A stretch of 23,373 nt of DNA from a virus. Its lineage: Duplodnaviria > Heunggongvirae > Uroviricota > Caudoviricetes. This document shows, in pieces, positions 2,430-23,373 of this stretch. Position numbers and translations under genes: made by a program. The stretch's first letter is position 1. Each line of letters begins with the position of its first letter. The DNA is taken from the IMG/VR virus record IMGVR_UViG_2663763232_000005. One strand, written 5' to 3'. The notes beneath the pieces are model-generated. The model saw only the letters and a list, made by a program, of their open reading frames with translations. It did no database searches and was not told where the DNA came from.

Positions 2430-2974
2430 GCCTCCATCGCTTTATCAGGTTTGTCGGTGTTACTGCCCTGACCGTTCTCTCTGTGACGATGCCCGTTATA
2501 GGCAAGCCGCATCGCTGACATGGTGGTACCGCCGGAGTCGCACAGGTCTTTCACCTGTCCGGTCACTTCCAGGTCCATTTCAAAACGTGCTCTGGGCGCA
2601 TTGCGAAACGTGATCGTTTTACCTGCACCGTCCACCACGATCCCCTCCCGGGTCAGCGTCACAGACTGCCCCTGATCGTCATAGACAGCCACCTCACCCG
2701 TCTGCAGCCCTTTCAGGCGGTAGCGCCGGTCCGACACCGTAACAACCACCGCATGAGAACGGTCGCCATCCGGAAACAACACCACCGCTTCCGCACCGCT
2801 GTTTGCCCTTGCGGTAAAACCGTAGGGTTCAAGATGTTCAACCCCGGCTTTGGGTTCACCGGCAATCAGGGACACATCCACGGTCTGACATTTCGTGGCG
2901 GCACTGATGCTTTTCACCACTGCCCGCCCAATCAGGCCGAGGAGTTGTCGCTGCATGGCTTCAATCGTCCTCAT
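2426..2974 (-). CDS. Baseplate assembly protein V / central spike (Mu gp45-like)
   Basis: 182-aa ORF, size and position typical of gpV-type spike proteins; 1-nt overlap with the upstream gene. Confidence 0.6.
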   Translation of the reverse strand: MRTIEAMQRQLLGLIGRAVVKSISAATKCQTVDVSLIAGEPKAGVEHLEPYGFTARANSGAEAVVLFPDGDRSHAVVVTVSDRRYRLKGLQTGEVAVYDDQGQSVTLTREGIVVDGAGKTITFRNAPRARFEMDLEVTGQVKDLCDSGGTTMSAMRLAYNGHRHRENGQGSNTDKPDKAMEA

Positions 2975-4053
2975 CAGAACGGGTCCTCCTGTACTCTGGC
3001 TTTTTTCTTTTTCCGCGCGCCGGGGGCTTCGGGTTCAGGCAGATAAGCATCAGGTGGGCCGACACGGATTTCCGTCAGGGTGCCGTTCTGGTCCTGAGTA
3101 AACGTGACTTCCGAGACAAGCAGTTCGGTATTGTCGAAACCACAGACCGGATCGAAGACAATCACCCGCTGGTTGGGCTGCCACAGCGTACCGTTACCCT
3201 GTCGCCAGCCCTGCACCACATAGGTGGTTTCATCCGTCCGCGCCGCCCGTTGTCGGGCTTCAAAGTCAGCACGCGCAATACAGCCTGCCCCCGTGGCCTG
3301 CCCTGTCTGCCTGATATACATCGGACGGTAACGAGCAATAAATGCGTCCTCTGTGCGGGCCCGCAGCGCGGTGGTGGTGGCCTCACCGAAATCATCGTCG
3401 TTTCCGGCACGCTGCCCCGCCACCTGGTAAACTGAAAACCGCTCCCGGATACTCTTCTCCGTATCACAGGAAAGGATGTTTTCCCCAAGTACCAGCGCGG
3501 TATGTGCCCGCGTTGAGCCAATACCGCCAATCACCAGCCTGCCGTGCGGGTCGTCATAAGCCAGCGCCTGCTGCTGACCGAGTATTTTGTTGATTACCTC
3601 AATCACCGTTTCACCGTGATCAGGCTGGACATCAGGAATAACACCCGACGGCGCACCGCTGTTCACCACCTCAATGCCGAAAGGCGCAGCAAGCGCCTGC
3701 GCAATCTGTACCAGCGATCGTCCGTTAAACTGTGTCGGTTCGGCTGCACAGTCAATCAGGTCAGCGGTCAGACTGCGTCCGGCAATACCGGTGCTGACCG
3801 AACGGGCATCGTAACGAACGGGCGTCGCCTCCACCCAGCCGGTGATCACCAGCTCATCACCAATCAGCACCTCCACTTTTGAACCGTTTTTAATGCGCGG
3901 CTGAAGCGTGGTGATACCCTCATCTCCCGGCCACTGGCGGGTGATCTCCACACTGAAATCCCGCGCCAGTCGTTCAACACCGGCACCGATGCGCACCGAT
4001 GTCCAGCCATTCCACTCCCGGCCATTTACCCGTAGCGTGACGTTATCGTTCAT
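2974..4053 (-). CDS. Baseplate hub protein (Mu gp44 / P2 gpD-like)
   Basis: 359-aa ORF between the gp43-like and gp45-like genes, with 4-nt overlap with gp43-like. Confidence 0.6.
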   Translation of the reverse strand: MNDNVTLRVNGREWNGWTSVRIGAGVERLARDFSVEITRQWPGDEGITTLQPRIKNGSKVEVLIGDELVITGWVEATPVRYDARSVSTGIAGRSLTADLIDCAAEPTQFNGRSLVQIAQALAAPFGIEVVNSGAPSGVIPDVQPDHGETVIEVINKILGQQQALAYDDPHGRLVIGGIGSTRAHTALVLGENILSCDTEKSIRERFSVYQVAGQRAGNDDDFGEATTTALRARTEDAFIARYRPMYIRQTGQATGAGCIARADFEARQRAARTDETTYVVQGWRQGNGTLWQPNQRVIVFDPVCGFDNTELLVSEVTFTQDQNGTLTEIRVGPPDAYLPEPEAPGARKKKKARVQEDPF

Positions 4054-5378
4054 TGCACTGGCACCTTCAGAGGGATCACCGGCACAAAGCCGGGATGCGT
4101 AATGGCATTACGCCGGATAATGTCCGCGTCACGCGCCGCGTTATCAAACCAGGTCGCCGCCAGCACCAGCGCGGGTAAAACCTCATCCGGCGTGCGCTGA
4201 ATGATCCGTGCAGACTGTTCAAGGCGCGTGTTGATATCCGCATTCAGATCTGCTTTCACCCGGCGCAGCGCCAGAAACAGCGCATCACTGGTTGTACGGG
4301 ACAACTCCTTATCAATTGCCGTATTCAGTGTGTCGCGAATGTCAGTCAGTTCTTCCCACGTCGGCAGATCAACCGTGTTTTTCACCGCCGGTGCATTGTT
4401 CAGTGCCGGATGCGTGACGGAAGGCCAGCCGGTGCTCTGCGCAGCTGTTGTTGCCTGCCCCACTGCGGCATCCTGCACCACCGCGGAAGTTGTTGGCGCA
4501 GGCAATCGGGTGACGGCATACGCCGCTTCGCTGATTGCGGTCGTACGAAGGGTGCTGGCAACCACGTTACGCTGCTGCGTCGCCGTAGCGGTGGTTTTAC
4601 TGTCCGTTTTCCAGACGCCGCGCGGTTGCAGATCGCTGCCGAGGCTGACACCGGAAAGCGTTTTGATCATGGTGACCAGGTCGCTGGCGTTACCATAAAG
4701 GCGTTTCCCGGTACGCCACATTTTCTGCACCTGCTCAACGAAATTTTTGCCTGACGATGGCGGCGGCAGAAGTACCGAGATATCCCCCTGCAACAGCCTG
4801 GCGGCATCCGATACGGCAGAATCCACCACTTTCATCGCATCAGAAATATACCCAAGCATTGTGCCGGCATTACCGACGACGTCGTTCTGCACAAAATCTG
4901 CCACGCCATCGATACTGAAACCACTGAAACTGTCACTGATGCAGTCATCCAGTGCAGAACAGGATGACATCAGCGTCTGCGCCGTCGCCGCACCTGATGT
5001 GGGGTAAGAGAGTTCTCCCGCTTCGACAAACTTCAGGTCAAAGCGGACAATACGCCCTTCACTTTTCGATGTGCTGACCCGAACTTCCCCATCAACACAG
5101 ACTTTCAGCTCACCATATGTCGGGTGGACAAGCGTGCCGGGACCGGGTTTATTCAGCGCTTCAATCAGGCGATCGCGCTGGTCAAAGCAGTCATCTCCCA
5201 CCACATAAGCTGTGATGGACGGGCGGAAAGTGACTTTTCCCAGATCTTCGGTATAGGGTTTGTCGCGGTTCGGATATTCGTGTGTTTCCACACGACGGCC
5301 GGTTCCCGCACTTTCTTCTTCAACCTTAAACGGCACACCTCGAAATGACGCATCCTGAAGCCTGTCTTTCCACGTCAT
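4050..5378 (-). CDS. Tail protein, DNA circulation protein family (Mu gp43/N-like)
   Basis: Track ORF starts at GTG 5384; the ATG at 5378 (MTWKDRLQDASFRGVPFKVEEE...) is preceded by GGAG 5 nt upstream and is the likelier start. About 442 aa, first gene after the tape measure/moron as in Mu-like tails. Confidence 0.7.
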   Translation of the reverse strand: MTWKDRLQDASFRGVPFKVEEESAGTGRRVETHEYPNRDKPYTEDLGKVTFRPSITAYVVGDDCFDQRDRLIEALNKPGPGTLVHPTYGELKVCVDGEVRVSTSKSEGRIVRFDLKFVEAGELSYPTSGAATAQTLMSSCSALDDCISDSFSGFSIDGVADFVQNDVVGNAGTMLGYISDAMKVVDSAVSDAARLLQGDISVLLPPPSSGKNFVEQVQKMWRTGKRLYGNASDLVTMIKTLSGVSLGSDLQPRGVWKTDSKTTATATQQRNVVASTLRTTAISEAAYAVTRLPAPTTSAVVQDAAVGQATTAAQSTGWPSVTHPALNNAPAVKNTVDLPTWEELTDIRDTLNTAIDKELSRTTSDALFLALRRVKADLNADINTRLEQSARIIQRTPDEVLPALVLAATWFDNAARDADIIRRNAITHPGFVPVIPLKVPVQ

Positions 5379-5385
5379 ATACACT

Positions 5386-6061: not shown

Positions 6062-7894
6062 CTACCAAAATCGGGTATAGCCAACATCGTGATTTATATC
6101 AATGCCACTGGAGCGTGTTTCCGTAACCCGCATACCTGGTGGCATATTTATAAATGATACCTTGATCTCACCATCAACTTTTGGCGCGGTAGCTTTATTA
6201 ATCATGAAGGGATTCGGGCCTGTGGCATCGGAGGCGTTGTTTGCCTGAGCCGGATCCACCGCCGGATAAGGAGTGTATCCCCGTGCCGGTATCCCCGTCC
6301 CATAAGCATCATAAGCACCCGCGCCCCACTGCGCCGAGTTAATGGTATCGACCGTGTCACCGGAACTGTCGGTAAACCATTCAATAATCGGCTTCAGCTT
6401 ATCCCACATATCCTGAAACCACTTAACAACCGGTCCCCAGTTATTGATCACCATCCCCAGCGGCGACCAGGCAAAAACCTTCTTCAGAAGTTCCCGGCCA
6501 GCCTCAAAATAAGGACCAATGGTTTCCCAGAGCTTCTTGAAATAAGGTCCGACAACATCCCAGTTAGTGATAATTAATCCCGCAGCCAGAGCAATCGCCG
6601 TCGCAATCATGCCAATCGGCGTCATCGACATGATCCTGCTGACAATACTGATGGCACTGCCCACGCCCATCAATCCCAGTTTCAGAATCGCAAGACCGGC
6701 AGCAAGCCCGACGACGCCGCGAATAACCCGGGGATTTTCATCCGCAAACTTCGTGAATTTTTCCCCCAACTCCCCCAGCCATTGCGTGATATTTTTAGCG
6801 TCACCAGAAAATGCGCCGCCAATAGCTGCAAGACCGTTAGTTGCGGTCCCCGTCATTGCCTCCCACAGGTTGGACAGCGTACCAAGCTGTGCCTGAACAC
6901 GTTTATTCAGGCTGGCCTGTTTATTCATCTTCTGCTGGATCTGATCGTAACCATCCTTTCCTTTATCGATCAGAGCATTGACCACCTGAAGGGTTTCGGC
7001 ATCATCACCAAATATTGCCTTAAGTACACCTGTTCGCTTAACGTCGGTCAGTTTTCGCAGCTTTGCCAGTTGCTTAAACATGTTATCAAGACCGCCAAAA
7101 CTCCCTTTGCCATCAGTAAAATCGAGCTGTACCCCGAGTTTCTGGCGGGCCATGATTTTATTGACGTCCCTGATTTTCTTAACGCTTAATCCGGACTGGA
7201 TAACTTTTCGCAGGGCATTACCTGCCGACTCCCCGTTCATCCCCATCTGATCCATCATGACACTGATGGGGGCAAGACTCTGTGCAGCCTGAAGACCGTC
7301 CTTATTCACCATCTTCAGAACAGAGCTGGTTTTAGTGAAGAATGACAGCATGTTGGTGTCGTCAACGCCCAGATAAAACGCCTTCTGAATTGTGTCGAAC
7401 AGCCCCATCATGTCTTCTGAGGCCGTTCCGGTAGCATCCTGCATCTTTGCTGCAAACTCGGCAGCCGCTTCCGGTGTTTTTTTCAGTTGTACCGCAAGAT
7501 AAGCTGTCGCTTTACCCACACCACCCAGAATGTTTTCTGCCGGGATCCCCTGACGCACCAGCATCTGCATCATGTTCTGGAAATCAGCCGTTGTACCGGG
7601 TAGCTGGTTACCCAGGCCAATAGCCAGTTTATTGATGTCCTGAAAGCTCTTTCCAACCTCGCCGTTCGCATCCATCATGGCGACTTTCAGCCCGGTAGCG
7701 GCGTTTTCCTGATTGGCATAAGATTTCAGGGAAAGCGTCAGCCCCGCTGCCAGTCCGCCACCAAGCGCCAGCCCACCCTGTGACGCTTCTTCCGCCTGGC
7801 GTTTAAATCCCCGGATTTTCTTTTGCATTTTCGACAGCGCGGGAGAAAGCCTGTCGACACCGGTGATCAACGCCTTAAGCTCAAATTCAGCCAT
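6062..7894 (-). CDS. Tail tape measure protein
   Basis: 610-aa ORF directly downstream of the frameshifted chaperone pair; Gly/Ala-rich hydrophobic central stretch and helical-looking N-terminal part, typical of tape measure proteins. Confidence 0.8.
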   Translation of the reverse strand: MAEFELKALITGVDRLSPALSKMQKKIRGFKRQAEEASQGGLALGGGLAAGLTLSLKSYANQENAATGLKVAMMDANGEVGKSFQDINKLAIGLGNQLPGTTADFQNMMQMLVRQGIPAENILGGVGKATAYLAVQLKKTPEAAAEFAAKMQDATGTASEDMMGLFDTIQKAFYLGVDDTNMLSFFTKTSSVLKMVNKDGLQAAQSLAPISVMMDQMGMNGESAGNALRKVIQSGLSVKKIRDVNKIMARQKLGVQLDFTDGKGSFGGLDNMFKQLAKLRKLTDVKRTGVLKAIFGDDAETLQVVNALIDKGKDGYDQIQQKMNKQASLNKRVQAQLGTLSNLWEAMTGTATNGLAAIGGAFSGDAKNITQWLGELGEKFTKFADENPRVIRGVVGLAAGLAILKLGLMGVGSAISIVSRIMSMTPIGMIATAIALAAGLIITNWDVVGPYFKKLWETIGPYFEAGRELLKKVFAWSPLGMVINNWGPVVKWFQDMWDKLKPIIEWFTDSSGDTVDTINSAQWGAGAYDAYGTGIPARGYTPYPAVDPAQANNASDATGPNPFMINKATAPKVDGEIKVSFINMPPGMRVTETRSSGIDINHDVGYTRFW

Positions 7895-8069
7895 GTGTGC
7901 GTTTCTCCTGCTCTATCCTGTTTGCCTGACTGACCAGCAAGGGAATTTCACTGATCGGCATATTCAGCAATTCGAAGGGATTAATGCGCCAGTAGCTGGC
8001 GCAGTCAAAGAAGCGATCAGTGAGGTATTCAGCCGTCAGGCCTGGAGGAAAAAACCAGCCACAAGCCAC
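7887..8069 (-). CDS. Tail assembly chaperone, -1 frameshift extension ORF
   Basis: 60-aa ORF in the -1 frame relative to 8036..8305, overlapping it by 34 nt. The overlap contains the slippery heptamer T TTT TTC, and a -1 slip reproduces this ORF's sequence (PPGLTAEYLTDRFFDC...). Confidence 0.55.
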   Translation of the reverse strand: MACGWFFPPGLTAEYLTDRFFDCASYWRINPFELLNMPISEIPLLVSQANRIEQEKRTHG

Positions 8070-8305
8070 GCCGCTGCATTCAGGTCTGCCGGAGACATCT
8101 GGTCGACAGAGCTTTGCGGCACTTTCGCCAGCCGCACAATGTATTTCGACACCACATGCGCCAGAAGTCTGACGGACTCATCCTGATTCATCTGGTAGGG
8201 ATACCCCAGCTCGCGGACATCCTTCCCGGTGGGTTCATCAAACTCCAGTACGGAGAGTGTCTCACCATGAGCGATAATCGGTTTCTTTAACTCAAGCTCT
8301 TTCAT
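8036..8305 (-). CDS. Tail assembly chaperone (short, zero-frame product)
   Basis: 89-aa ORF between the tail tube and tape measure genes, the conserved position of the G/GT-type chaperone pair. Confidence 0.6.
   Translation of the reverse strand: MKELELKKPIIAHGETLSVLEFDEPTGKDVRELGYPYQMNQDESVRLLAHVVSKYIVRLAKVPQSSVDQMSPADLNAAAWLVAGFFLQA
8048..8054 (-). other. Programmed -1 ribosomal frameshift site (slippery heptamer T TTT TTC)
   Basis: Zero-frame codons GGT TTT TTC near the end of the 8036..8305 ORF; plus strand reads gaaaaaa at 8048..8054. Confidence 0.55.
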
Positions 8306-8661
8306 TACTGGTAATCCCCTTCTTCACCGTGGAACTCAAGATCAACCGTGCCTTCTTCGGCATTATGGTTCGCTTCTCCGTGCAGCCAGGCGGACGACAA
8401 TACATAGACCTGACCGTTCGCCAGCTCGGCAGTGATGGTCATCTCATCAGACGAGGTGATTTTACTCACCGGAAAATTCTTCGGCACCTTGAAGGTCCCT
8501 TTGACATAAGGCGCACGGTGAGTTTCCTTGCGGTCCACTGAACCGTCCAGGCCGATGATGTCATCATTGACCGTCCTGTTCATGGGCACCTCAATGCCGC
8601 CGGTCAGCGATAGCTGCTGACCGTCAATTTTGAAATAACAGGTTCCCCCGATACGGGCCAT
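8305..8661 (-). CDS. Tail tube protein (Mu gpM-like)
   Basis: 118-aa ORF immediately downstream of the sheath gene with 1-nt overlap; canonical sheath-tube order. Confidence 0.65.
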   Translation of the reverse strand: MARIGGTCYFKIDGQQLSLTGGIEVPMNRTVNDDIIGLDGSVDRKETHRAPYVKGTFKVPKNFPVSKITSSDEMTITAELANGQVYVLSSAWLHGEANHNAEEGTVDLEFHGEEGDYQ

Positions 8662-10157
8662 TATGCAGACTCCTCTGAATACTGAAGACGGAACTGGTTA
8701 ACCACGGCAAAAACACGCAACTGGTTAACATAGTCAGGCGGGAACAGCGTGTTCAGGCGGTTCGGAGCGCTGGCATCACGCTCCACAACCAGGTACTGCT
8801 TAAACAGTTCGTAGTTTTCCACGATCCCCGCACGCTCAAGCTGACGGTAGGTTGCCAGCAGTTCCCCTTTGATTACCGCCGGGGTGACAATCGCCTGACC
8901 GGGACCAAAGCGGGTACCGTCGCTGGCAAGCTTGTGACGCCCGTACTTACTGGTAATGACGGATTTCAGTTTGCGCAGTACATACGCACTGGTATGCAGC
9001 GTCTCGCTGTCGAGGTAGCTGTTATCCGCAACCCCGTAAGAATTTTTCCTGTACGTGGTGACATCACGCTGAATGCGCAGCACCCCGCTTTCGACATACG
9101 CCGTTGCCACGCCATGAGACAGCAGGGTCTGCTGCTCGGTCATCGTGAACCGTTTCCCCTTCGGCGCAGGCAGCATACCCACCAGCTCACCGGTCTGCGT
9201 GGGACGTGCCGGATCGTTGCGGATAAACACCGCTGCGCGGGCGGTACGGCTTGCCGCCAGCTCGTCGGCAGGCGTCTGGGTCTCTTTTTCGTACCCCGCC
9301 AGGGTGATGTGCTGCTGGTTAAACTGGTCACCTGCGTTCACCAGTTCTGACAGTGTGCCGGTCTTTGCCGTATACACATGACCATACAGCTGACGCGCAT
9401 AGCTCCAGCGACCGCTGGTATCGTTCATCTCGGTCACCAGCGTGTTAACGGAGGCCGTGTCGTTGAACGGCAGACCGATATAATCAAACGGCTCATCCGC
9501 CATTGCAGCCACCGCGCCGGTGAGAACCGGAGCGCCCGTTCCGGCGGTCCCCGTCGCCACGGCAATCTGTACGCCCGCTGGCAGCACTTCGCCCCCACCG
9601 AAGCCGTAGTAATTGAGGCTGACAGGAATTTCATTCCCGCAAAGCCCCTTATGACGCGCGGTCAGCGTGACAACACCAGCCGAAGATGAAGCTGTAAACG
9701 GCAGAGTCGGAACGGCATTGATGGCATCTTTGATACTGCTGGCAATCGTCGTGACGTTATCGCCGTTGGTCACCGGAGCCTGCACGCGGGTACGTCCCAC
9801 ATAGACATTCACCGTGCCGCTTTCGGTTGCTTCCCCGGTCACCGTCAGCGTAACCGTTGCCGCCGCGCCTGTGGCTTCCGGAACGGCAATCACATACAGC
9901 TCACCAAACGGGTCGGTCTGGCGATAAGCCTCGACCATACGCGCCAGCTGACTTCCCGCACCACAAATCTGGCGTGCATAGTCTGCCGACGGCATCAGCA
10001 CCAGACTGTTGGCAACAATCTCTGCACCGTTATTGGCATGACCAATCAGCAGCGATGCTCCGCTGTCCTGTGCAGTATTCGCAGCCTGGTTATCCATTTC
10101 CGCATAAAACAGCGGAACCAGCGTATTCGACGGAATGGTGTTAAAGCTTATCGTCAT
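8661..10157 (-). CDS. Contractile tail sheath protein (Mu gpL-like)
   Basis: 498-aa ORF, size and position typical of myovirus sheath proteins, followed by tube, chaperones and tape measure. Confidence 0.8.
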   Translation of the reverse strand: MTISFNTIPSNTLVPLFYAEMDNQAANTAQDSGASLLIGHANNGAEIVANSLVLMPSADYARQICGAGSQLARMVEAYRQTDPFGELYVIAVPEATGAAATVTLTVTGEATESGTVNVYVGRTRVQAPVTNGDNVTTIASSIKDAINAVPTLPFTASSSAGVVTLTARHKGLCGNEIPVSLNYYGFGGGEVLPAGVQIAVATGTAGTGAPVLTGAVAAMADEPFDYIGLPFNDTASVNTLVTEMNDTSGRWSYARQLYGHVYTAKTGTLSELVNAGDQFNQQHITLAGYEKETQTPADELAASRTARAAVFIRNDPARPTQTGELVGMLPAPKGKRFTMTEQQTLLSHGVATAYVESGVLRIQRDVTTYRKNSYGVADNSYLDSETLHTSAYVLRKLKSVITSKYGRHKLASDGTRFGPGQAIVTPAVIKGELLATYRQLERAGIVENYELFKQYLVVERDASAPNRLNTLFPPDYVNQLRVFAVVNQFRLQYSEESA

Positions 10158-19775: not shown

Positions 19776-20828
19776 TTATTTCCCCACCAGTTCACTTACC
19801 TCTTTCACCGTCTGATTAAACCGCTCTGACTCAAGTTCAACACCTAACGCCCGACGCCCCAGCGCCATTGCTGCTTTTATTGTGGAACCGGATCCCATAA
19901 AGAAATCAGCAACCAGATCACCAGGTCGACTACTGGCATTGATTATTTGCCGGAGCATATCCGCCGGTTTCTCGCACGGATGTTTACCCGGGTAGAACTG
20001 AACGGGCTTATGCGTCCAGACATCGGTATAAGGCACGGAGACTGATACGGAGAAATAGCGCCGGAGAGATTTAAACTCATCCAGCAATTCAGAATATTTG
20101 CGATTCAGTGAATCATAAGATGCCACCAGCTGGTGGTGTGGTTGTTCCAGTTGTTGTTCCTGAAACTTCTCTGCCGCTATACGGGAAAACAGTGCCTGTA
20201 ACTTCCGATAGTCAGCCTCATTCGGCAACTGCCACTGACTGGCACCAAACCAGTGGGAAACCATATTTTTCTTACCTGTGGCTTCGGCAATTTGTTTTGC
20301 CGTTATACCCAGTTCGGCACGAGCATCCCTGAAATACGATATCAGCGGTGCCATTATGTGCTGTTTGAGTTCCCTTTCTTTTGCCGCATAGCCGTCACTT
20401 TTGCCGCGATATGGCCCCTGGTAATGTTCAGCAAACAGAACGCGCTCTGTAGCGGGGAAATATGCCCGCAGGCTTTCTTTATTACACCCGTTCCATCGTC
20501 CGGACGGCTTCGCCCAGATGATATGGTTAAGCACGTTGAAACGTTCACGCATCATGATCTCGATATCAGATGCGAGGCGATGTCCACAGAACAGGTAAAG
20601 GCTTCCGGCTGGTTTCAGTACCCGCCAGAACTGGGCCAGACAGTAGTCCAGCCACTTCAGGTAATCTTCGTCCCCTTTCCACTGATTGTCCCAGCCGTTG
20701 GGCTTCACTTTGAAGTACGGCGGATCGGTAACAATCAGATCAATGGAATCATCAGGCAAGGACTGAATAAAATGCAGGCAATCAGCGTTGATTAAATCAA
20801 CACTGTTTATTTTTACAGTATTTTTCAT
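19776..20828 (-). CDS. DNA methyltransferase, beta-class N6-adenine/N4-cytosine (orphan, no endonuclease partner in window)
   Basis: 350-aa ORF with motif IV DPPY near the N-terminus (IDLIVTDPPYF) and motif I FxGxG near the C-terminus (VADFFMGSGST), the order diagnostic of beta-class amino-methyltransferases. No Shine-Dalgarno is visible before the ATG. Confidence 0.85.
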   Translation of the reverse strand: MKNTVKINSVDLINADCLHFIQSLPDDSIDLIVTDPPYFKVKPNGWDNQWKGDEDYLKWLDYCLAQFWRVLKPAGSLYLFCGHRLASDIEIMMRERFNVLNHIIWAKPSGRWNGCNKESLRAYFPATERVLFAEHYQGPYRGKSDGYAAKERELKQHIMAPLISYFRDARAELGITAKQIAEATGKKNMVSHWFGASQWQLPNEADYRKLQALFSRIAAEKFQEQQLEQPHHQLVASYDSLNRKYSELLDEFKSLRRYFSVSVSVPYTDVWTHKPVQFYPGKHPCEKPADMLRQIINASSRPGDLVADFFMGSGSTIKAAMALGRRALGVELESERFNQTVKEVSELVGK

Positions 20829-21482: not shown

Positions 21483-22415
21483 ATGACTACTACAGCCACT
21501 TCCGCGCCACTAACTAAACAAAAAAAAATGCGTATCGGTTTCTTCCAAAGCTCCTCAGGAACGAAGTCAACTACATCAAATGCACAACTTGCATTTGACA
21601 ACATGTATACAACCATTGTTACACCTTCGCAAAATTCTTATACCGCTGAGTTTGATAAGAAAAAATTAAAGATTGTATTCTTAGAAAAAGACGCACAGGC
21701 GGAGTTCTATTTTGGTTATCTATCATGCTCTCGTGATGGTTTCCACTTACCTTATATTGGTGATGAAAATTGGGATGAGCACAATATTCCGTTAGATGAT
21801 AAAAAATATATAGTCGAACGCACTTATTTTATTTACTACTATAAGAAAGACATTCTTGTTTTATCTCAAAATCATTTAGGACCTAAAGTTTCCGATTTAG
21901 CATTTCTTTTATTCAATTTTTCTGAAGAAAACAAACCTGTAGCGTTTGAGGCAATTTGGAAAAAAGAAAGTGTAAAAGAACTACTTGAAACAGGAAGCAC
22001 TTTACGTAGCTGTGAAATTACACTCGCCGCTCCACGTAATTTTAGCGCAACGGATTATGACCTTTCGAATTCATTTTCCAAAAGTATGATTGAAATGATG
22101 GCTGGGATGGGCGGTTCGCATTTAAAACTATCACTTAGAGGTAGAGCATCGCAACGTAAATTAATCCGTGGTTATCTCAGTGATGAAGTAAAAAGTGGAA
22201 TAAAGGAATTAATAGAAAAAGTTCCTCACTTATTACGTAAAGCTAATGTCACTGAACCTAAAAATACTCATTCAAGGAGTCTTCTCAATCAAGTTCTGAT
22301 CAGTGAAAAAAACATTAACACAAAAGATGGCTACGCAAAAGAAACAGATGTGCGTACTGCCTTGATCAGTGCTAAAATTGAACATGGTCAGTATTTAAAG
22401 CAATATGAAATCTGA
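21483..22415 (+). CDS. Hypothetical soluble protein, first gene of an AT-rich two-gene cargo cassette (candidate defence/exclusion sensor)
   Basis: 310-aa ORF on the strand opposite to all phage late genes; AT-rich and Lys/Asn/Ile-rich. AAGGG lies 8 nt before the ATG. No motif I recognise; SSSGTKST is not a canonical Walker A. Confidence 0.6.
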   Translation: MTTTATSAPLTKQKKMRIGFFQSSSGTKSTTSNAQLAFDNMYTTIVTPSQNSYTAEFDKKKLKIVFLEKDAQAEFYFGYLSCSRDGFHLPYIGDENWDEHNIPLDDKKYIVERTYFIYYYKKDILVLSQNHLGPKVSDLAFLLFNFSEENKPVAFEAIWKKESVKELLETGSTLRSCEITLAAPRNFSATDYDLSNSFSKSMIEMMAGMGGSHLKLSLRGRASQRKLIRGYLSDEVKSGIKELIEKVPHLLRKANVTEPKNTHSRSLLNQVLISEKNINTKDGYAKETDVRTALISAKIEHGQYLKQYEI

Positions 22416-22429
22416 TCTTATTTTTAAGG

Positions 22430-22882
22430 ATGATGATTATGCTTATTAAAGTTTTAATTAACATAGTTATCAGTGGGCTGTTAGCTTGGGTGCTTGGGAA
22501 ATACCTAGCGCCTATGGCTCACTCTGATATCTTAAGTACAGCCGGAGTGTTATCTACGGTGGCAGGCATTTTGTTTGGTTTTGTATTGGCCGCTATTTCC
22601 ATCTTCAGTTCTGCAAGTTCAAGTACTGATGGAATTATTTTTGCTTTAAAACAAAACAAGATTTTACCTAAAATTATTCATAACCTGTTATCTACGGGAG
22701 TTACCTTAATATTAGCATGTATTTTCCCGCTGATAGCAATGTTTATAAATGAAAAAATCACCATTACCTCTGTAAGACTTGATTTCGCCCTAACCTTATA
22801 TGGTTTCTCGACCCTGATCGTATCAATAGTTTCATTTGCAAGTACCTGGAGAAAAATAAACTGGATATTACCCCACATATAA
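22430..22882 (+). CDS. Hypothetical integral membrane protein with four predicted TM helices, second gene of the cassette (candidate effector)
   Basis: 150-aa ORF starting 14 nt after the upstream stop. AAGGA precedes the start; the ATG at 22439 has the best spacing. Four hydrophobic segments at roughly residues 5-27, 38-62, 78-106 and 118-140. Confidence 0.6.
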   Translation: MMIMLIKVLINIVISGLLAWVLGKYLAPMAHSDILSTAGVLSTVAGILFGFVLAAISIFSSASSSTDGIIFALKQNKILPKIIHNLLSTGVTLILACIFPLIAMFINEKITITSVRLDFALTLYGFSTLIVSIVSFASTWRKINWILPHI

Positions 22883-22925: not shown

Positions 22926-23288
22926 TTAATCCATATCTAAGCTAACATTTAGAATAGCTAGACAACCTTCTATAAATCCCTCAGCCATCTGTATCTCAAT
23001 GCGTATTATTTTCTCATCCTTTTTGCGAGCTTTAGCGAGCTTTCTTTTAGAGATACCGTATAGGTAATGGGCAACAAGAAGCGAGTGTTCTTCAGGTCTT
23101 TTTTGCTTTAGACGAGCAAGACAACCTTCAATAATTAATGCATCACTATCTGAACAAGCCTGACGTGTTTTGCTTGTATAGGGAAGAAGCCCTTTAAACC
23201 CAGCAGCTATAGGCGAATAGTCTACCCCAGAACTATCACTCGCCGCCCATGCACCCCAACGATCCAGAACCATCTGAATATCACGCAT
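22926..23288 (-). CDS. Late-gene antiterminator Q (phage 82 / QuuD-like family)
   Basis: Track ORF runs to 23366, but the ATG at 23288 is preceded by GGAG 7 nt upstream and gives MRDIQMVLDRWGAWAASDSSGVDYSPIAAGFKGLLP..., which resembles the QuuD-type Q N-terminus as I recall it. Confidence 0.65.
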   Translation of the reverse strand: MRDIQMVLDRWGAWAASDSSGVDYSPIAAGFKGLLPYTSKTRQACSDSDALIIEGCLARLKQKRPEEHSLLVAHYLYGISKRKLAKARKKDEKIIRIEIQMAEGFIEGCLAILNVSLDMD

Positions 23289-23373
23289 CAACTTTCTCCA
23301 CAAAATCAGGCCAGCATGACCTGCTCCCCGTTGATTAGTACACCCCGATGTTAGTAATGTCTTCATAAGCCAC

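What the first reader, a model, noticed from the sequence alone, without database searches (positions are those of the whole stretch)
7887..8305. Programmed -1 translational frameshift in the tail assembly chaperone pair (slippery T TTT TTC)
Two overlapping ORFs lie between the tube and tape measure genes, the downstream one in the -1 frame. The overlap contains the heptamer T TTT TTC positioned so that a -1 slip at TTT TTC continues directly into the downstream ORF (PPGLTAEY...). This is the G/GT-type recoding arrangement and means the 60-aa ORF is an extension of the chaperone, not an independent gene.
Basis: seen in the sequence. Interest (0 to 1): 0.4.

Follow-up and report, generated by a model that had tools for sequence, protein, structure and literature searches.

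The report
Tail chaperone -1 frameshift site
This is an ordinary but unannotated example of a well-known phage trick: a run of six T's near the end of the tail-assembly chaperone gene most likely lets a fraction of ribosomes slip back one base, producing a longer version of the chaperone that is probably needed to build the tail.

Summary
On the minus strand, an 89-aa ORF (8305..8036) lies between the tail tube gene (8661..8305) and the tape measure gene (7894..6062). It is a Pfam PF10109 tail assembly chaperone, the family of P2 gpE. It ends ...GCT GGT TTT TTC CTC CAG GCC TGA. The heptamer T_TTT_TTC (8054..8048) is in the phase that tandem -1 slippage requires. The -1 frame then stays open for 53 codons (PPGLTAEY...THG) and stops at 7889..7887, overlapping the tape measure ATG.

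All 38 related loci I dissected, other than phage Mu, have an in-frame slippery heptamer at the equivalent place. In 37 it is NNT_TTT_TTN; one Mannheimia phage has G_GGA_AAG. In every case a 50-63-aa -1 extension runs towards the tape measure gene. These loci include phage P2, where the literature reports E+E' frameshifting. The extension evolves as coding sequence. In many lineages it has no start codon upstream of its conserved motif, so it is not an independent gene.

No classical stimulator is present. A conserved 8-bp hairpin lies 44 nt downstream and its role is unknown. This is a new member of a known kind, unannotated in the public records I checked, and of low interest. Ribosomal slippage was not separated experimentally from transcriptional slippage.

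The parts
8036..8305 (-). Tail assembly chaperone ORF, 89 aa, gpE-like. This is the 0-frame product. Its ATG at 8305..8303 overlaps the tube gene stop as TAATG.
   Evidence: ORF list and translation. Pfam PF10109 Phage_TAC_7, E=2.4e-15, 56.7 bits against a cutoff of 25, residues 4-86 on profile positions 2-78 of 79. PHROG 166 'tail protein', E=4e-23.
8048..8054 (-). Slippery heptamer T_TTT_TTC in X_XXY_YYZ phase, at codons 85-86 (Phe-Phe). After a -1 slip both tRNA-Phe molecules re-pair with cognate UUU codons.
   Evidence: Sequence. Phase check. Conserved as NNT_TTT_TTN in 37 of the 38 non-Mu related loci dissected. Identical in 80 of 80 IMG/VR copies.
7887..8048 (-). The -1 frame extension, 53 codons plus TGA (PPGLTAEYLTDRFFDCASYWRINPFELLNMPISEIPLLVSQANRIEQEKRTHG*). 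The predicted fusion CDS is join(8305..8048, 8048..7887) on the minus strand, 139 aa.
   Evidence: Translation. Third-position substitution bias against EPP-1 (9/7/27) and stop codons in the other two frames. Conserved motif [FY][WF][WRK]x[ND]P in all SfV- and SfIV-type lineages. PHROG 32181, E=4e-40.
8036..8038 (-). 0-frame stop codon TGA (context UGA-C), 9 nt after the heptamer.
   Evidence: Sequence. The distance from the first base of the heptamer to the 0-frame stop varies from 12 to 69 nt among relatives and is not conserved.
8067..8069 (-). GTG that makes the list of ORFs show a '60-aa ORF'. It is not a credible start.
   Evidence: Pairing of the upstream sequence with the 16S rRNA anti-Shine-Dalgarno sequence gives +0.4 kcal/mol, against -7.9 for the chaperone start. 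The NTG arises from the conserved 0-frame Trp codon, and N is G, A, T or C in relatives. W to R change in the -1 frame (8057 T>C) in 18 of 80 close copies.
7985..8003 (-). Perfect 8-bp hairpin UGCGCCAG-CUA-CUGGCGCA (-12.9 kcal/mol), 44 nt 3' of the heptamer, inside the extension (it codes CASYWR). It is a candidate RNA or DNA element of unknown role and may not belong to the frameshift signal.
   Evidence: Consensus fold (RNAalifold) of 10 Enterobacterales sequences. Stem wobble bases are invariant (0 of 44 minor codons) against 31% elsewhere, and the loop wobble base varies. Energy.
7887..7894 (-). ATGGCTGA overlap. The tape measure start codon (7894..7892) overlaps the stop of the -1 extension (7889..7887). 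The tape measure Shine-Dalgarno sequence AGGAGA at 7909..7904 lies inside the extension.
   Evidence: Sequence. The same ATGGCTGA (GTGGCTGA in the two Edwardsiella loci) junction is present in most relatives.
8305..8661 (-). Tail tube gene, 118 aa (upstream context).
   Evidence: PF10618 Tail_tube, E=2.4e-33. PHROG 185.
6062..7894 (-). Tail tape measure gene, 610 aa (downstream context).
   Evidence: PF10145, E=1.5e-26. PHROG 28/17727 tape measure.

Best explanation
This is a programmed -1 ribosomal frameshift of the P2 gpE/E+E' type, sitting in an SfV/SfII-like prophage.

Most ribosomes translate the chaperone gene to its TGA and make the 89-aa chaperone. A minority pause with tRNA-Phe on UUU in the P site and tRNA-Phe on UUC in the A site. 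Both tRNAs slip back one base onto U_UU and UUU, which are both cognate Phe codons. Translation then continues in the -1 frame for 53 more codons and yields a 139-aa fusion (...AGFF-PPGLTAEY...).

By analogy with lambda gpG/gpGT and P2 gpE/E+E', both proteins would bind the tape measure protein through the shared N-terminal domain. The rare fusion would use its extra C-terminal domain to recruit tube subunits. Tail assembly would then depend on a fixed low fusion:chaperone ratio, and neither protein would remain in the virion.

Shown here: the anatomy, the phase, family membership of the N-terminal part, conservation of the site, coding selection on the extension, and the absence of an independent start.

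Inferred: that slippage is ribosomal, its efficiency, and the assembly role.
For: - **Anatomy and phase:**
- **Family:** ORF1 is PF10109, the family of P2 gpE. P2 gpE hits the same profile over positions 2-78 of 79, so the profile ends at the slip site in both proteins.
- **P2 reference:** the P2 record annotates E+E' as a joined CDS with a -1 frameshift site. The sizes match: P2 gives 91 and 142 aa, this locus 89 and 139 aa.
- **Conservation:** NNT_TTT_TTN, in phase, at chaperone codon 78-104, with a -1 extension of 50-63 aa ending at or near the tape measure start. This holds in 11 phage loci, 18 genome loci from Shigella, Edwardsiella, Buttiauxella, Citrobacter, Scandinavium, Kluyvera, Erwinia, Pantoea, Kosakonia, Burkholderia and Pseudogulbenkiania, and 7 further P2-like phages (one checked only for the T run and its context). 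An eighth P2-like phage, from Mannheimia, has G_GGA_AAG instead.
- **Two-frame matches:** tblastn with the fusion protein gives two-frame matches in 23 phage records. The P2 fusion does so in 401 records.
- **Coding selection:** third-position substitution bias in the extension.
- **No own start:** no usable start codon or Shine-Dalgarno sequence for the extension.
- **Motif efficiency:** U_UUU_UUY is among the efficient -1 motifs in E. coli, H_HH.U_UU.Y (PMC4066793).
- **Stimulators:** the recoding review states that tailed-phage shifts often act without a stimulatory signal (PMC5009743).
Against: - No product was observed.
- No stimulatory structure lies 5-9 nt downstream.
- No SD-like element lies upstream: -2.7 kcal/mol, weaker than the window's mean of -3.5.
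- In a reporter, U6C alone gave only 0.12% frameshifting without a stimulator (PMC4066793 supplement). The efficiency here is unknown and could be very low.
- The C-terminal extension does not hit Pfam PF06528, the P2 E' domain. A profile-profile comparison gives only P=0.0019.
- The same protein would result from insertion of one U by RNA polymerase.
Confidence: 0.85

Rival explanations
1. The mechanism is transcriptional slippage. RNA polymerase adds one extra U while copying the T6 run, and ordinary translation of that mRNA gives the identical GFF-PPGL fusion.
For: - The site is a homopolymer, T6 here and T7 in the SfIV, ST64B and P27 alleles.
- The protein product cannot tell the two mechanisms apart.
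- U7 and A7 runs are under-represented in E. coli genes in all frames, possibly because of transcriptional slippage (PMC4066793).
- Shigella uses transcriptional slippage in spa13 (PMC5009743).
Against: - Productive slippage in bacteria is described for runs of about 9 A or T (PMC5009743). Most lineages keep exactly T6 followed by C or G rather than lengthening the run.
- A P2-like Mannheimia phage has G_GGA_AAG at the same place. That is a classical ribosomal motif and not a homopolymer.
- The run is always in X_XXY_YYZ phase.
Confidence: 0.07
2. ORF2 (8069..7887) is an independent small gene. It would be translated from its own GTG, or by reinitiation after the chaperone stop codon.
For: - A GTG exists at 8069.
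- One phage record and 11 protein clusters annotate it as a separate hypothetical protein.
- PHROG 32181 collects such calls.
Against: - There is no Shine-Dalgarno sequence: +0.4 kcal/mol against -7.9 for the chaperone start.
- The NTG is a by-product of the conserved 0-frame Trp codon and is CTG or absent in relatives.
- Ten of the 18 lineages scored have no ATG, GTG or TTG upstream of the conserved motif, and locus L107 has none in the whole extension.
- The -1 frame upstream of the heptamer is not conserved as protein.
- Only 11 clusters call it among billions of predicted proteins, although the locus occurs in 1102 of 5426 complete E. coli genomes.
Confidence: 0.02
3. The overlap is a chance arrangement. 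The -1 frame is open by accident, the T run merely encodes Phe-Phe, and the 141 nt between the chaperone and the tape measure gene are non-coding.
For: For the single sequence alone, an in-frame heptamer somewhere in the overlap has p of about 0.05-0.15.
Against: - The site is conserved in phase across lineages with 35-50% protein identity, and the preceding amino acid differs between them.
- Substitutions in the extension are biased to the third codon position, and the other two frames contain stop codons.
- The extension has a conserved protein motif.
- The extension ends precisely at the tape measure start in most loci.
Confidence: 0.03

Closest known systems
Phage P2 gpE / gpE+E' (-1 frameshift at T_TTT_TTG; Christie et al. 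2002, as cited in PMC3091744)
   Same: - The N-terminal domain belongs to the same Pfam family, PF10109, and the profile ends at the slip site in both proteins.
- The position is the same, between the tube and tape measure genes of a contractile tail.
- Both have a T6 slippery run in the same phase at codon 84-86.
- The product sizes match: 91 and 142 aa in P2, 89 and 139 aa here.
- In both, the extension stop overlaps the tape measure ATG.
- Neither has an obvious stimulatory structure.
   Different: - The last base is C, so the A-site codon is UUC (Phe) rather than UUG (Leu). Both slipping tRNAs are therefore tRNA-Phe and both land on cognate codons.
- The extension is not recognised by Pfam PF06528, the P2 E' domain. 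It aligns to P2-type extensions only weakly (hhalign P=0.0019, 31 columns).
- The surrounding sheath, tube and baseplate genes are Mu-like, not P2-like.
- There is no experimental evidence for this phage group.
Phage lambda gpG / gpGT (-1 frameshift at G_GGA_AAG)
   Same: - The gene order is the same: major tail gene, then chaperone with overlapping -1 ORF, then tape measure gene.
- The logic is the same: two proteins with a common N terminus made at a fixed ratio, about 30:1 in lambda. The shared part binds the tape measure protein and the extension binds the tube protein. Neither is in the virion (PMC5009743).
   Different: - No sequence similarity was detected.
- The slippery motif is different.
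- Lambda has a non-contractile tail.
- Membership is by analogy of arrangement and mechanism only.
Phage Mu gp41 (reported -2 frameshift)
   Same: The sheath and tube neighbours in this window are Mu-like: a close relative's record labels them Mup39 and Mup40. The chaperone sits in the same slot before the tape measure gene.
   Different: - Mu gp41 is 144 aa and belongs to PF23746, with only a marginal PF10109 hit.
- It has no in-frame X_XXY_YYZ heptamer.
- Its downstream ORF is in the +1 frame, consistent with the -2 shift reported in the literature (PMC5009743).
- The window's chaperone does not hit PF23746.

Membership tests
G/GT-type tail assembly chaperone frameshift (Xu, Hendrix & Duda 2004 arrangement) | Two overlapping ORFs located between the major tail (tube) gene and the tape measure gene | tested here: met
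   Tube gene 8661..8305, ORF1 8305..8036, -1 ORF running to 7887, tape measure gene 7894..6062.
G/GT-type tail assembly chaperone frameshift (Xu, Hendrix & Duda 2004 arrangement) | Slippery sequence inside the overlap, in the phase that lets both tRNAs re-pair in the new frame | tested here: met
   T_TTT_TTC at 8054..8048, codons 85-86. The -1 reading continues without a stop for 53 codons.
G/GT-type tail assembly chaperone frameshift (Xu, Hendrix & Duda 2004 arrangement) | Downstream ORF lacks its own translation start | tested here: met
   The only upstream candidate is GTG 8069, with Shine-Dalgarno pairing of +0.4 kcal/mol. Ten of the 18 lineages scored have no start codon before the conserved motif.
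G/GT-type tail assembly chaperone frameshift (Xu, Hendrix & Duda 2004 arrangement) | Arrangement conserved among relatives despite sequence divergence | tested here: met
   All 38 non-Mu related loci dissected keep an in-phase slippery heptamer and a -1 extension of 50-63 aa. In 37 the heptamer is NNT_TTT_TTN.
G/GT-type tail assembly chaperone frameshift (Xu, Hendrix & Duda 2004 arrangement) | Fusion protein is made at a low fixed ratio and is required for tail assembly | not testable with these tools
   This needs protein detection and genetics. Reporter data for the bare motif give 0.12% without a stimulator and 7.6% with a pseudoknot (PMC4066793 supplement).
Pfam PF10109 Phage_TAC_7 (P2 gpE / Mu gp41 / gp14 chaperones) | Score above the curated gathering threshold over the full profile | tested here: met
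   56.7 bits against a cutoff of 25, E=2.4e-15, profile positions 2-78 of 79. P2 gpE scores 47.8 bits over the same span.
Pfam PF06528 Phage_P2_GpE (the E' extension domain of P2-like phages) | HMM match of the -1 extension | tested here: not met
   No hit even at E<=10 for the window, SfIV or DVM-2008 extensions. P2 E' scores 78.7 bits. Bordetella phage PBb002 scores 15.8 bits, below the cutoff.
Pfam PF06528 Phage_P2_GpE (the E' extension domain of P2-like phages) | Remote homology of the extension by profile-profile comparison | tested here: inconclusive
   hhalign of 15 SfV/SfIV-type extensions against 9 P2-type extensions: 31 aligned columns, P=0.0019, probability 14.6%. The shared pattern is aromatic-W-x-x-P...E-L.
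Mu gp41-type chaperone (PF23746, -2 frameshift) | PF23746 match, with the downstream ORF in the +1 frame | tested here: not met
   The window protein has no PF23746 hit, and its downstream ORF is in the -1 frame. Mu itself hits PF23746 at 9e-35 and has its +1 frame open.

The most novel reading that the evidence does not exclude
The perfectly conserved 8-bp hairpin at 8003..7985, 44 nt downstream of the heptamer, might be a distal frameshift stimulator. One speculative route is that it pauses a leading ribosome, so that a trailing ribosome queues with its P and A sites on the T6 run. Its stem wobble positions show no synonymous variation, while the loop wobble position varies. If true, this would explain how apparently 'stimulator-less' U6N sites in P2- and SfV-type chaperone genes could exceed the roughly 0.1% seen for the bare motif. 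My evidence shows only reduced synonymous variation. It does not link the hairpin to frameshifting. A palindromic protein-binding DNA site or some other RNA function fits the data equally well.
Probability: 0.12. Interest if true: 0.5.

Novelty: new member of a known kind. Interest (0 to 1): 0.18.

Why it matters
The value is mainly in annotation. The locus occurs in about 20% of complete E. coli genomes (1102 of 5426). It is also present in the serotype-converting Shigella phages SfV, SfII, SfI and SfIV, in Salmonella ST64B and in the Stx phage phiP27.

In none of the records I inspected for these phage groups, nor in the one RefSeq E. coli genome checked, is a joined frameshift CDS annotated. 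The 141-nt 'gap' before the tape measure gene is either left empty or called a hypothetical protein. Annotating join(8305..8048, 8048..7887) would restore what is probably an essential tail assembly protein.

The biology follows the conserved tailed-phage rule and would not surprise a specialist. Two small points may be useful. First, the chaperone is of the P2 type with a -1 shift, while the rest of the tail module is Mu-like and Mu itself is reported to shift -2. Second, the conserved hairpin offers a testable candidate in the old question of how these phage sites reach useful efficiency without a nearby stimulator.

Tried and rejected
**Searches that gave nothing useful**
- IMG/VR scans with the chaperone and with P2 E+E' returned only near-identical copies. 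They were useless for covariation, although they showed the T6 run is fixed in 80 of 80 copies.
- A 9-sequence alignment was too diverse for the genome scan. A 4-sequence alignment worked. One of its two search patterns contained ...AGFF, which biases the hits at the amino-acid level but not at the codon level.
- A search of 5.8 billion proteins with the extension found only 11 short 'hypothetical' clusters and no natural in-frame fusion.
- NCBIfam gave no hit.
- The PDB sequence search gave only spurious light-harvesting protein hits.
- Rfam gave nothing at gathering thresholds across the window, and nothing credible in 7850..8350.
- The AlphaFold2 model of the fusion, built from a shallow alignment, had mean pLDDT 48.8 and was unusable, so I ran no fold search.
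- Xu et al. 2004 and Christie et al. 2002 are not in the held library. I could not check whether SfV, ST64B or P27 were already listed there.

**Stimulators considered and rejected for this lineage**
- A downstream structure at 5-9 nt is not supported. Over 95 nt the z-score is -1.7, there is only a weak 4-bp hairpin, and the consensus fold does not keep it.
- An upstream SD-like sequence is not supported.
- A nearby 0-frame stop codon is not conserved. The stop lies 12-69 nt from the start of the heptamer in relatives.

**Other readings considered and rejected**
- The extension is not an N-terminal extension of the tape measure protein, because it is in a different frame.
- Reinitiation after the TGA is unlikely, because the next start codon in the -1 frame is 26 codons beyond the slip site.
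Full report
**1. What is in the sequence**

All genes around the finding are on the minus strand. ORF1 runs 8305..8036 and encodes 89 aa, MKELELKK...WLVAGFFLQA*. The mechanically listed ORF2 runs 8069..7887 and starts VACGWFFPPGLTAEY.... Because 8305-8069 = 236 = 2 mod 3, ORF2 is in the -1 frame relative to ORF1.

The end of ORF1 reads GCT GGT TTT TTC CTC CAG GCC TGA. The heptamer T_TTT_TTC therefore lies at 8054..8048 in X_XXY_YYZ phase. A -1 slip gives ...AGFF|PPGLTAEY...RTHG*, a 139-aa fusion.

The stop of the -1 frame (TGA, 7889..7887) overlaps the ATG of the next gene (7894..7892) as ATGGCTGA. That gene's AGGAGA Shine-Dalgarno sequence (7909..7904) lies inside the extension. ORF1's own ATG overlaps the stop of the upstream gene as TAATG.

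**2. Identity of the genes**

Pfam identifies the neighbours:
- 10157..8661 is a tail sheath gene.
- 8661..8305 is a tail tube gene (PF10618, E=2.4e-33).
- 7894..6062 is a tape measure gene (PF10145).
- 5384..4050 is a Mu-type DNA-circulation tail protein gene.

ORF1 is PF10109, 'Phage tail assembly chaperone proteins, E, or 41 or 14', with E=2.4e-15 and 56.7 bits against a cutoff of 25. PHROGs agrees and places the extension in phrog_32181, of unknown function.

The window is 99.4% identical to Shigella phage SfII and 98.8% identical to SfV across this region. The region occurs in 1102 of 5426 complete E. coli genomes.

None of the records I inspected for this phage group annotates a joined CDS. 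SfV, SfII and the RefSeq E. coli genome leave the 141 nt empty. One phage record calls it a hypothetical protein.

**3. Is it more than chance?**

In this window's genes, in-frame X_XXY_YYZ heptamers occur at 20 per 6447 codons. A single occurrence in the overlap is therefore only mildly unlikely, with p of about 0.05-0.15. The weight of the argument comes from comparison with relatives.

A tblastn search with the fusion protein found two-frame matches in phages from Shigella, Escherichia, Edwardsiella, Pantoea, Salmonella and Burkholderia. I dissected three sets of loci:
- 11 phage loci plus P2 and Mu;
- 18 loci from one-genome-per-species bacterial contigs;
- 8 further P2-like phages.

Every locus except Mu has an in-phase slippery heptamer at the equivalent place, followed by a -1 extension of 50-63 aa. 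It is NNT_TTT_TTN at chaperone codon 78-104 in all but one. The exception is a Mannheimia phage, which carries G_GGA_AAG, the lambda motif, at that position. In most loci the extension ends in the ATGGCTGA overlap with the tape measure gene.

The residue before the run varies (G, S, R, N, P, D), but its third base is always T, and the first Phe codon is always TTT. With P(T at third position)=0.24 and P(TTT given Phe)=0.66 in this window, the rough chance is 1e-4 for five independent lineages and 1e-8 for ten. This treats the lineages as independent, which is an approximation.

The divergent SfIV, ST64B and P27 allele shares about 40-45% identity. It has replaced the chaperone and tape measure genes from the start of the chaperone gene onward. 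It carries T_TTT_TTT at the same codon and has the same extension architecture.

**4. The extension is coding, and is not an independent gene**

Against Edwardsiella phage EPP-1, the 159 nt of the extension differ at 9, 7 and 27 sites in codon positions 1, 2 and 3 of the -1 frame. The other two frames carry 2-5 stop codons. A motif [FY][WF][WRK]x[ND]P...RI is conserved across all SfV- and SfIV-type lineages.

By contrast, the -1 frame upstream of the heptamer is not conserved. It opens anywhere from 5 to 76 codons upstream. It also takes non-synonymous changes freely among close copies. For example, 8057 T>C changes Trp to Arg in 18 of 80 copies.

The GTG at 8069 has no Shine-Dalgarno pairing, +0.4 kcal/mol against -7.9 for the chaperone start. 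It is a by-product of the conserved 0-frame Trp codon (NTG, where N is G, A, T or C in relatives). Ten of the 18 lineages scored have no ATG, GTG or TTG upstream of the conserved motif. Locus L107 has none in the entire extension. The next start codon after the slip site in this window is 26 codons downstream, which rules out reinitiation after the TGA.

A search of 5.8 billion predicted proteins found the extension called as a protein in only 11 small clusters, and never as a natural in-frame fusion.

**5. Relation to known systems**

P2 gpE hits PF10109 over profile positions 2-78 of 79, ending at residue 85. The window protein matches the same positions, ending at residue 86. The slip site is therefore at the same place in the family profile.

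The P2 record annotates E+E' as a joined CDS with a '-1 translational frameshift' at T_TTT_TTG. The literature gives 91 and 142 aa for the two products (PMC3091744), against 89 and 139 aa here.

The extension does not match Pfam PF06528, the P2 E' domain. A profile-profile comparison of 15 SfV/SfIV-type extensions against 9 P2-type extensions aligns 31 columns at P=0.0019, with probability 14.6%. This is suggestive and not conclusive.

Mu is different. Its sheath and tube genes resemble this window's, but its gp41 is 144 aa and belongs to PF23746. It has no in-frame heptamer, and its downstream ORF is in the +1 frame. That agrees with the -2 shift reported for Mu (PMC5009743).

The function assigned to the two products is inferred from lambda. 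There, gpG and the G part of gpGT bind the tape measure protein, the T part recruits the tube protein, the ratio is about 30:1, and neither protein is in the virion (PMC5009743).

**6. Mechanism and stimulators**

With UUU in the P site and UUC in the A site, both tRNAs are tRNA-Phe. After a -1 shift both face UUU, a cognate codon. This follows from the sequence and from established decoding rules.

In E. coli, H_HH.U_UU.Y motifs are among the most efficient heptamers (PMC4066793). The bare U6C motif gave 0.12% frameshifting, rising to 0.89% with the IS911 stimulator and 7.6% with the IS3 pseudoknot (supplement).

I found no stimulator in the usual places.
- Folding 95 nt from the heptamer gives z=-1.7 and only a weak 4-bp hairpin 5 nt downstream. 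The consensus fold of ten relatives does not keep it.
- Upstream pairing to the anti-Shine-Dalgarno sequence is -2.7 kcal/mol, below the window average.
- Rfam has nothing.
- Burkholderia-lineage loci do have a strong stem-loop starting about 8 nt downstream, with z of -3.4 to -3.8.

The review notes that tailed-phage shifts often lack stimulators, and that P2-type efficiency is 2-3 fold above lambda's. The efficiency here remains unknown.

**7. Rival explanations**

- **Transcriptional insertion of one U.** This would give the same protein and cannot be excluded by sequence alone. It is less likely. Productive slippage in bacteria is described for runs of about nine bases. The run is held at six in most lineages. 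The Mannheimia homologue uses a non-homopolymeric ribosomal motif at the same place.
- **Independent initiation of ORF2.** Rejected on the evidence in section 4.
- **Chance overlap.** Rejected on the evidence in sections 3 and 4.

**8. An unplanned observation**

Inside the extension, 44 nt after the heptamer, lies a perfect 8-bp hairpin, UGCGCCAG-CUA-CUGGCGCA (8003..7985, -12.9 kcal/mol). I compared 11 distinct Enterobacterales sequences.
- The four degenerate codons whose wobble base is in the stem (TGC, GCC, TAC, CGC) never vary: 0 of 44 are minor codons.
- The one codon whose wobble base is in the loop does vary (AGC or AGT). It also varies among the 80 close copies.
- Other codons with a conserved amino acid show 31% minor codons.

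At the level of individual codon-by-sequence counts ('cells'), Fisher's exact test gives p=3.5e-7, but the cells are not phylogenetically independent. At the codon level the comparison is 4 of 4 against 2 of 20, p=0.0014.

The spacing is far beyond the 5-9 nt of classical stimulators. The SfIV-type allele has a different hairpin at +32 to +49, with one AU-to-GC compensatory pair. Whether this is a distal frameshift element, another RNA signal or a palindromic DNA site is open.

**9. Verdict**

This is a P2 E/E+E'-type -1 programmed frameshift site in an SfV/SfII-like prophage. It is a new, unannotated member of a well-known kind. I could not check whether the 2004 survey by Xu et al. already lists this phage group, because the paper is not held. 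Interest is low. The practical outcome is a corrected annotation, join(8305..8048, 8048..7887), and a small testable question about the hairpin.

Noticed in passing
window 7985..8003 (minus strand): A perfect 8-bp hairpin or palindrome, TGCGCCAG-CTA-CTGGCGCA, lies inside the -1 extension, 44 nt 3' of the slippery site. Its stem wobble bases are invariant in 11 distinct Enterobacterales relatives (0 of 44 minor codons, against 31% elsewhere), while the loop wobble base varies. Its function is unknown.
   Followed up: partly
window 21483..22882 (+ strand), A9 run at 21520..21528: Two plus-strand ORFs sit between the DNA methylase gene (20828..19776) and the antiterminator Q gene (23366..22926), in the opposite orientation to both. 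They encode a 310-aa DUF6731 protein and a 150-aa protein with no Pfam hit. They look like cargo (a 'moron'). The first carries a run of nine A's at codons 13-16, long enough for transcriptional slippage or phase variation. Neither protein has a PADLOC hit.
   Followed up: partly
window about 8268..8305; L004 (SfIV) 2893..3301: There is a mosaic boundary. Similarity to SfIV, phage 720R4 and many E. coli prophages stops about 35 nt into the chaperone gene. From there the chaperone and tape measure genes are replaced by an allele of about 40-45% identity (the SfIV/ST64B/P27 type). That allele keeps the slip site as T_TTT_TTT and has a longer 0-frame tail.
   Followed up: partly
window 8036..10157 compared with L092 (phage Mu) 2553..3132: The sheath, tube and baseplate genes are Mu-like, but the chaperone is of the P2 gpE type (PF10109, -1 shift). 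Mu itself has gp41 (PF23746) with its downstream ORF in the +1 frame, and is reported to shift -2. Chaperone type and frameshift direction have therefore changed within otherwise related tail modules.
   Followed up: partly
L102, L106, L111-L114, L091 (Citrobacter, Kluyvera, Burkholderia, Pantoea loci): Several lineages carry two overlapping in-phase heptamers, G_GGT_TTT followed by T_TTT_TTY, which could give two adjacent slip opportunities. Burkholderia loci also have a strong stem-loop from about 8 nt downstream, with z about -3.5.
   Followed up: no
L202 (Mannheimia phage 587AP1) 142..456: This P2-like chaperone gene uses G_GGA_AAG, the lambda motif, instead of the T6 run at the equivalent position. 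The slippery motif has been exchanged within one protein family.
   Followed up: no
protein P0011; window 8079..8029 region: One database protein joins the +1-frame start MQRRGLW... to the conserved extension sequence. This suggests a genome with an indel near the T run, or a miscalled gene.
   Followed up: no
literature, PMC5581363: A Burkholderia gladioli protein with the same Pfam domain (Phage_TAC_7), Bg_9562, has been reported as a secreted antifungal effector. That is an unexpected claim for a tail assembly chaperone homologue. B. gladioli phage BgVeeders33 carries a homologue of the window's chaperone, with the same slip site.
   Followed up: no
window 8303..8307 and 7887..7894: Tight translational coupling runs through the tail operon. 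The tube stop and chaperone start overlap as TAATG. The extension stop and tape measure start overlap as ATGGCTGA. The tape measure Shine-Dalgarno sequence (7909..7904) is embedded in the extension's coding sequence.
   Followed up: yes
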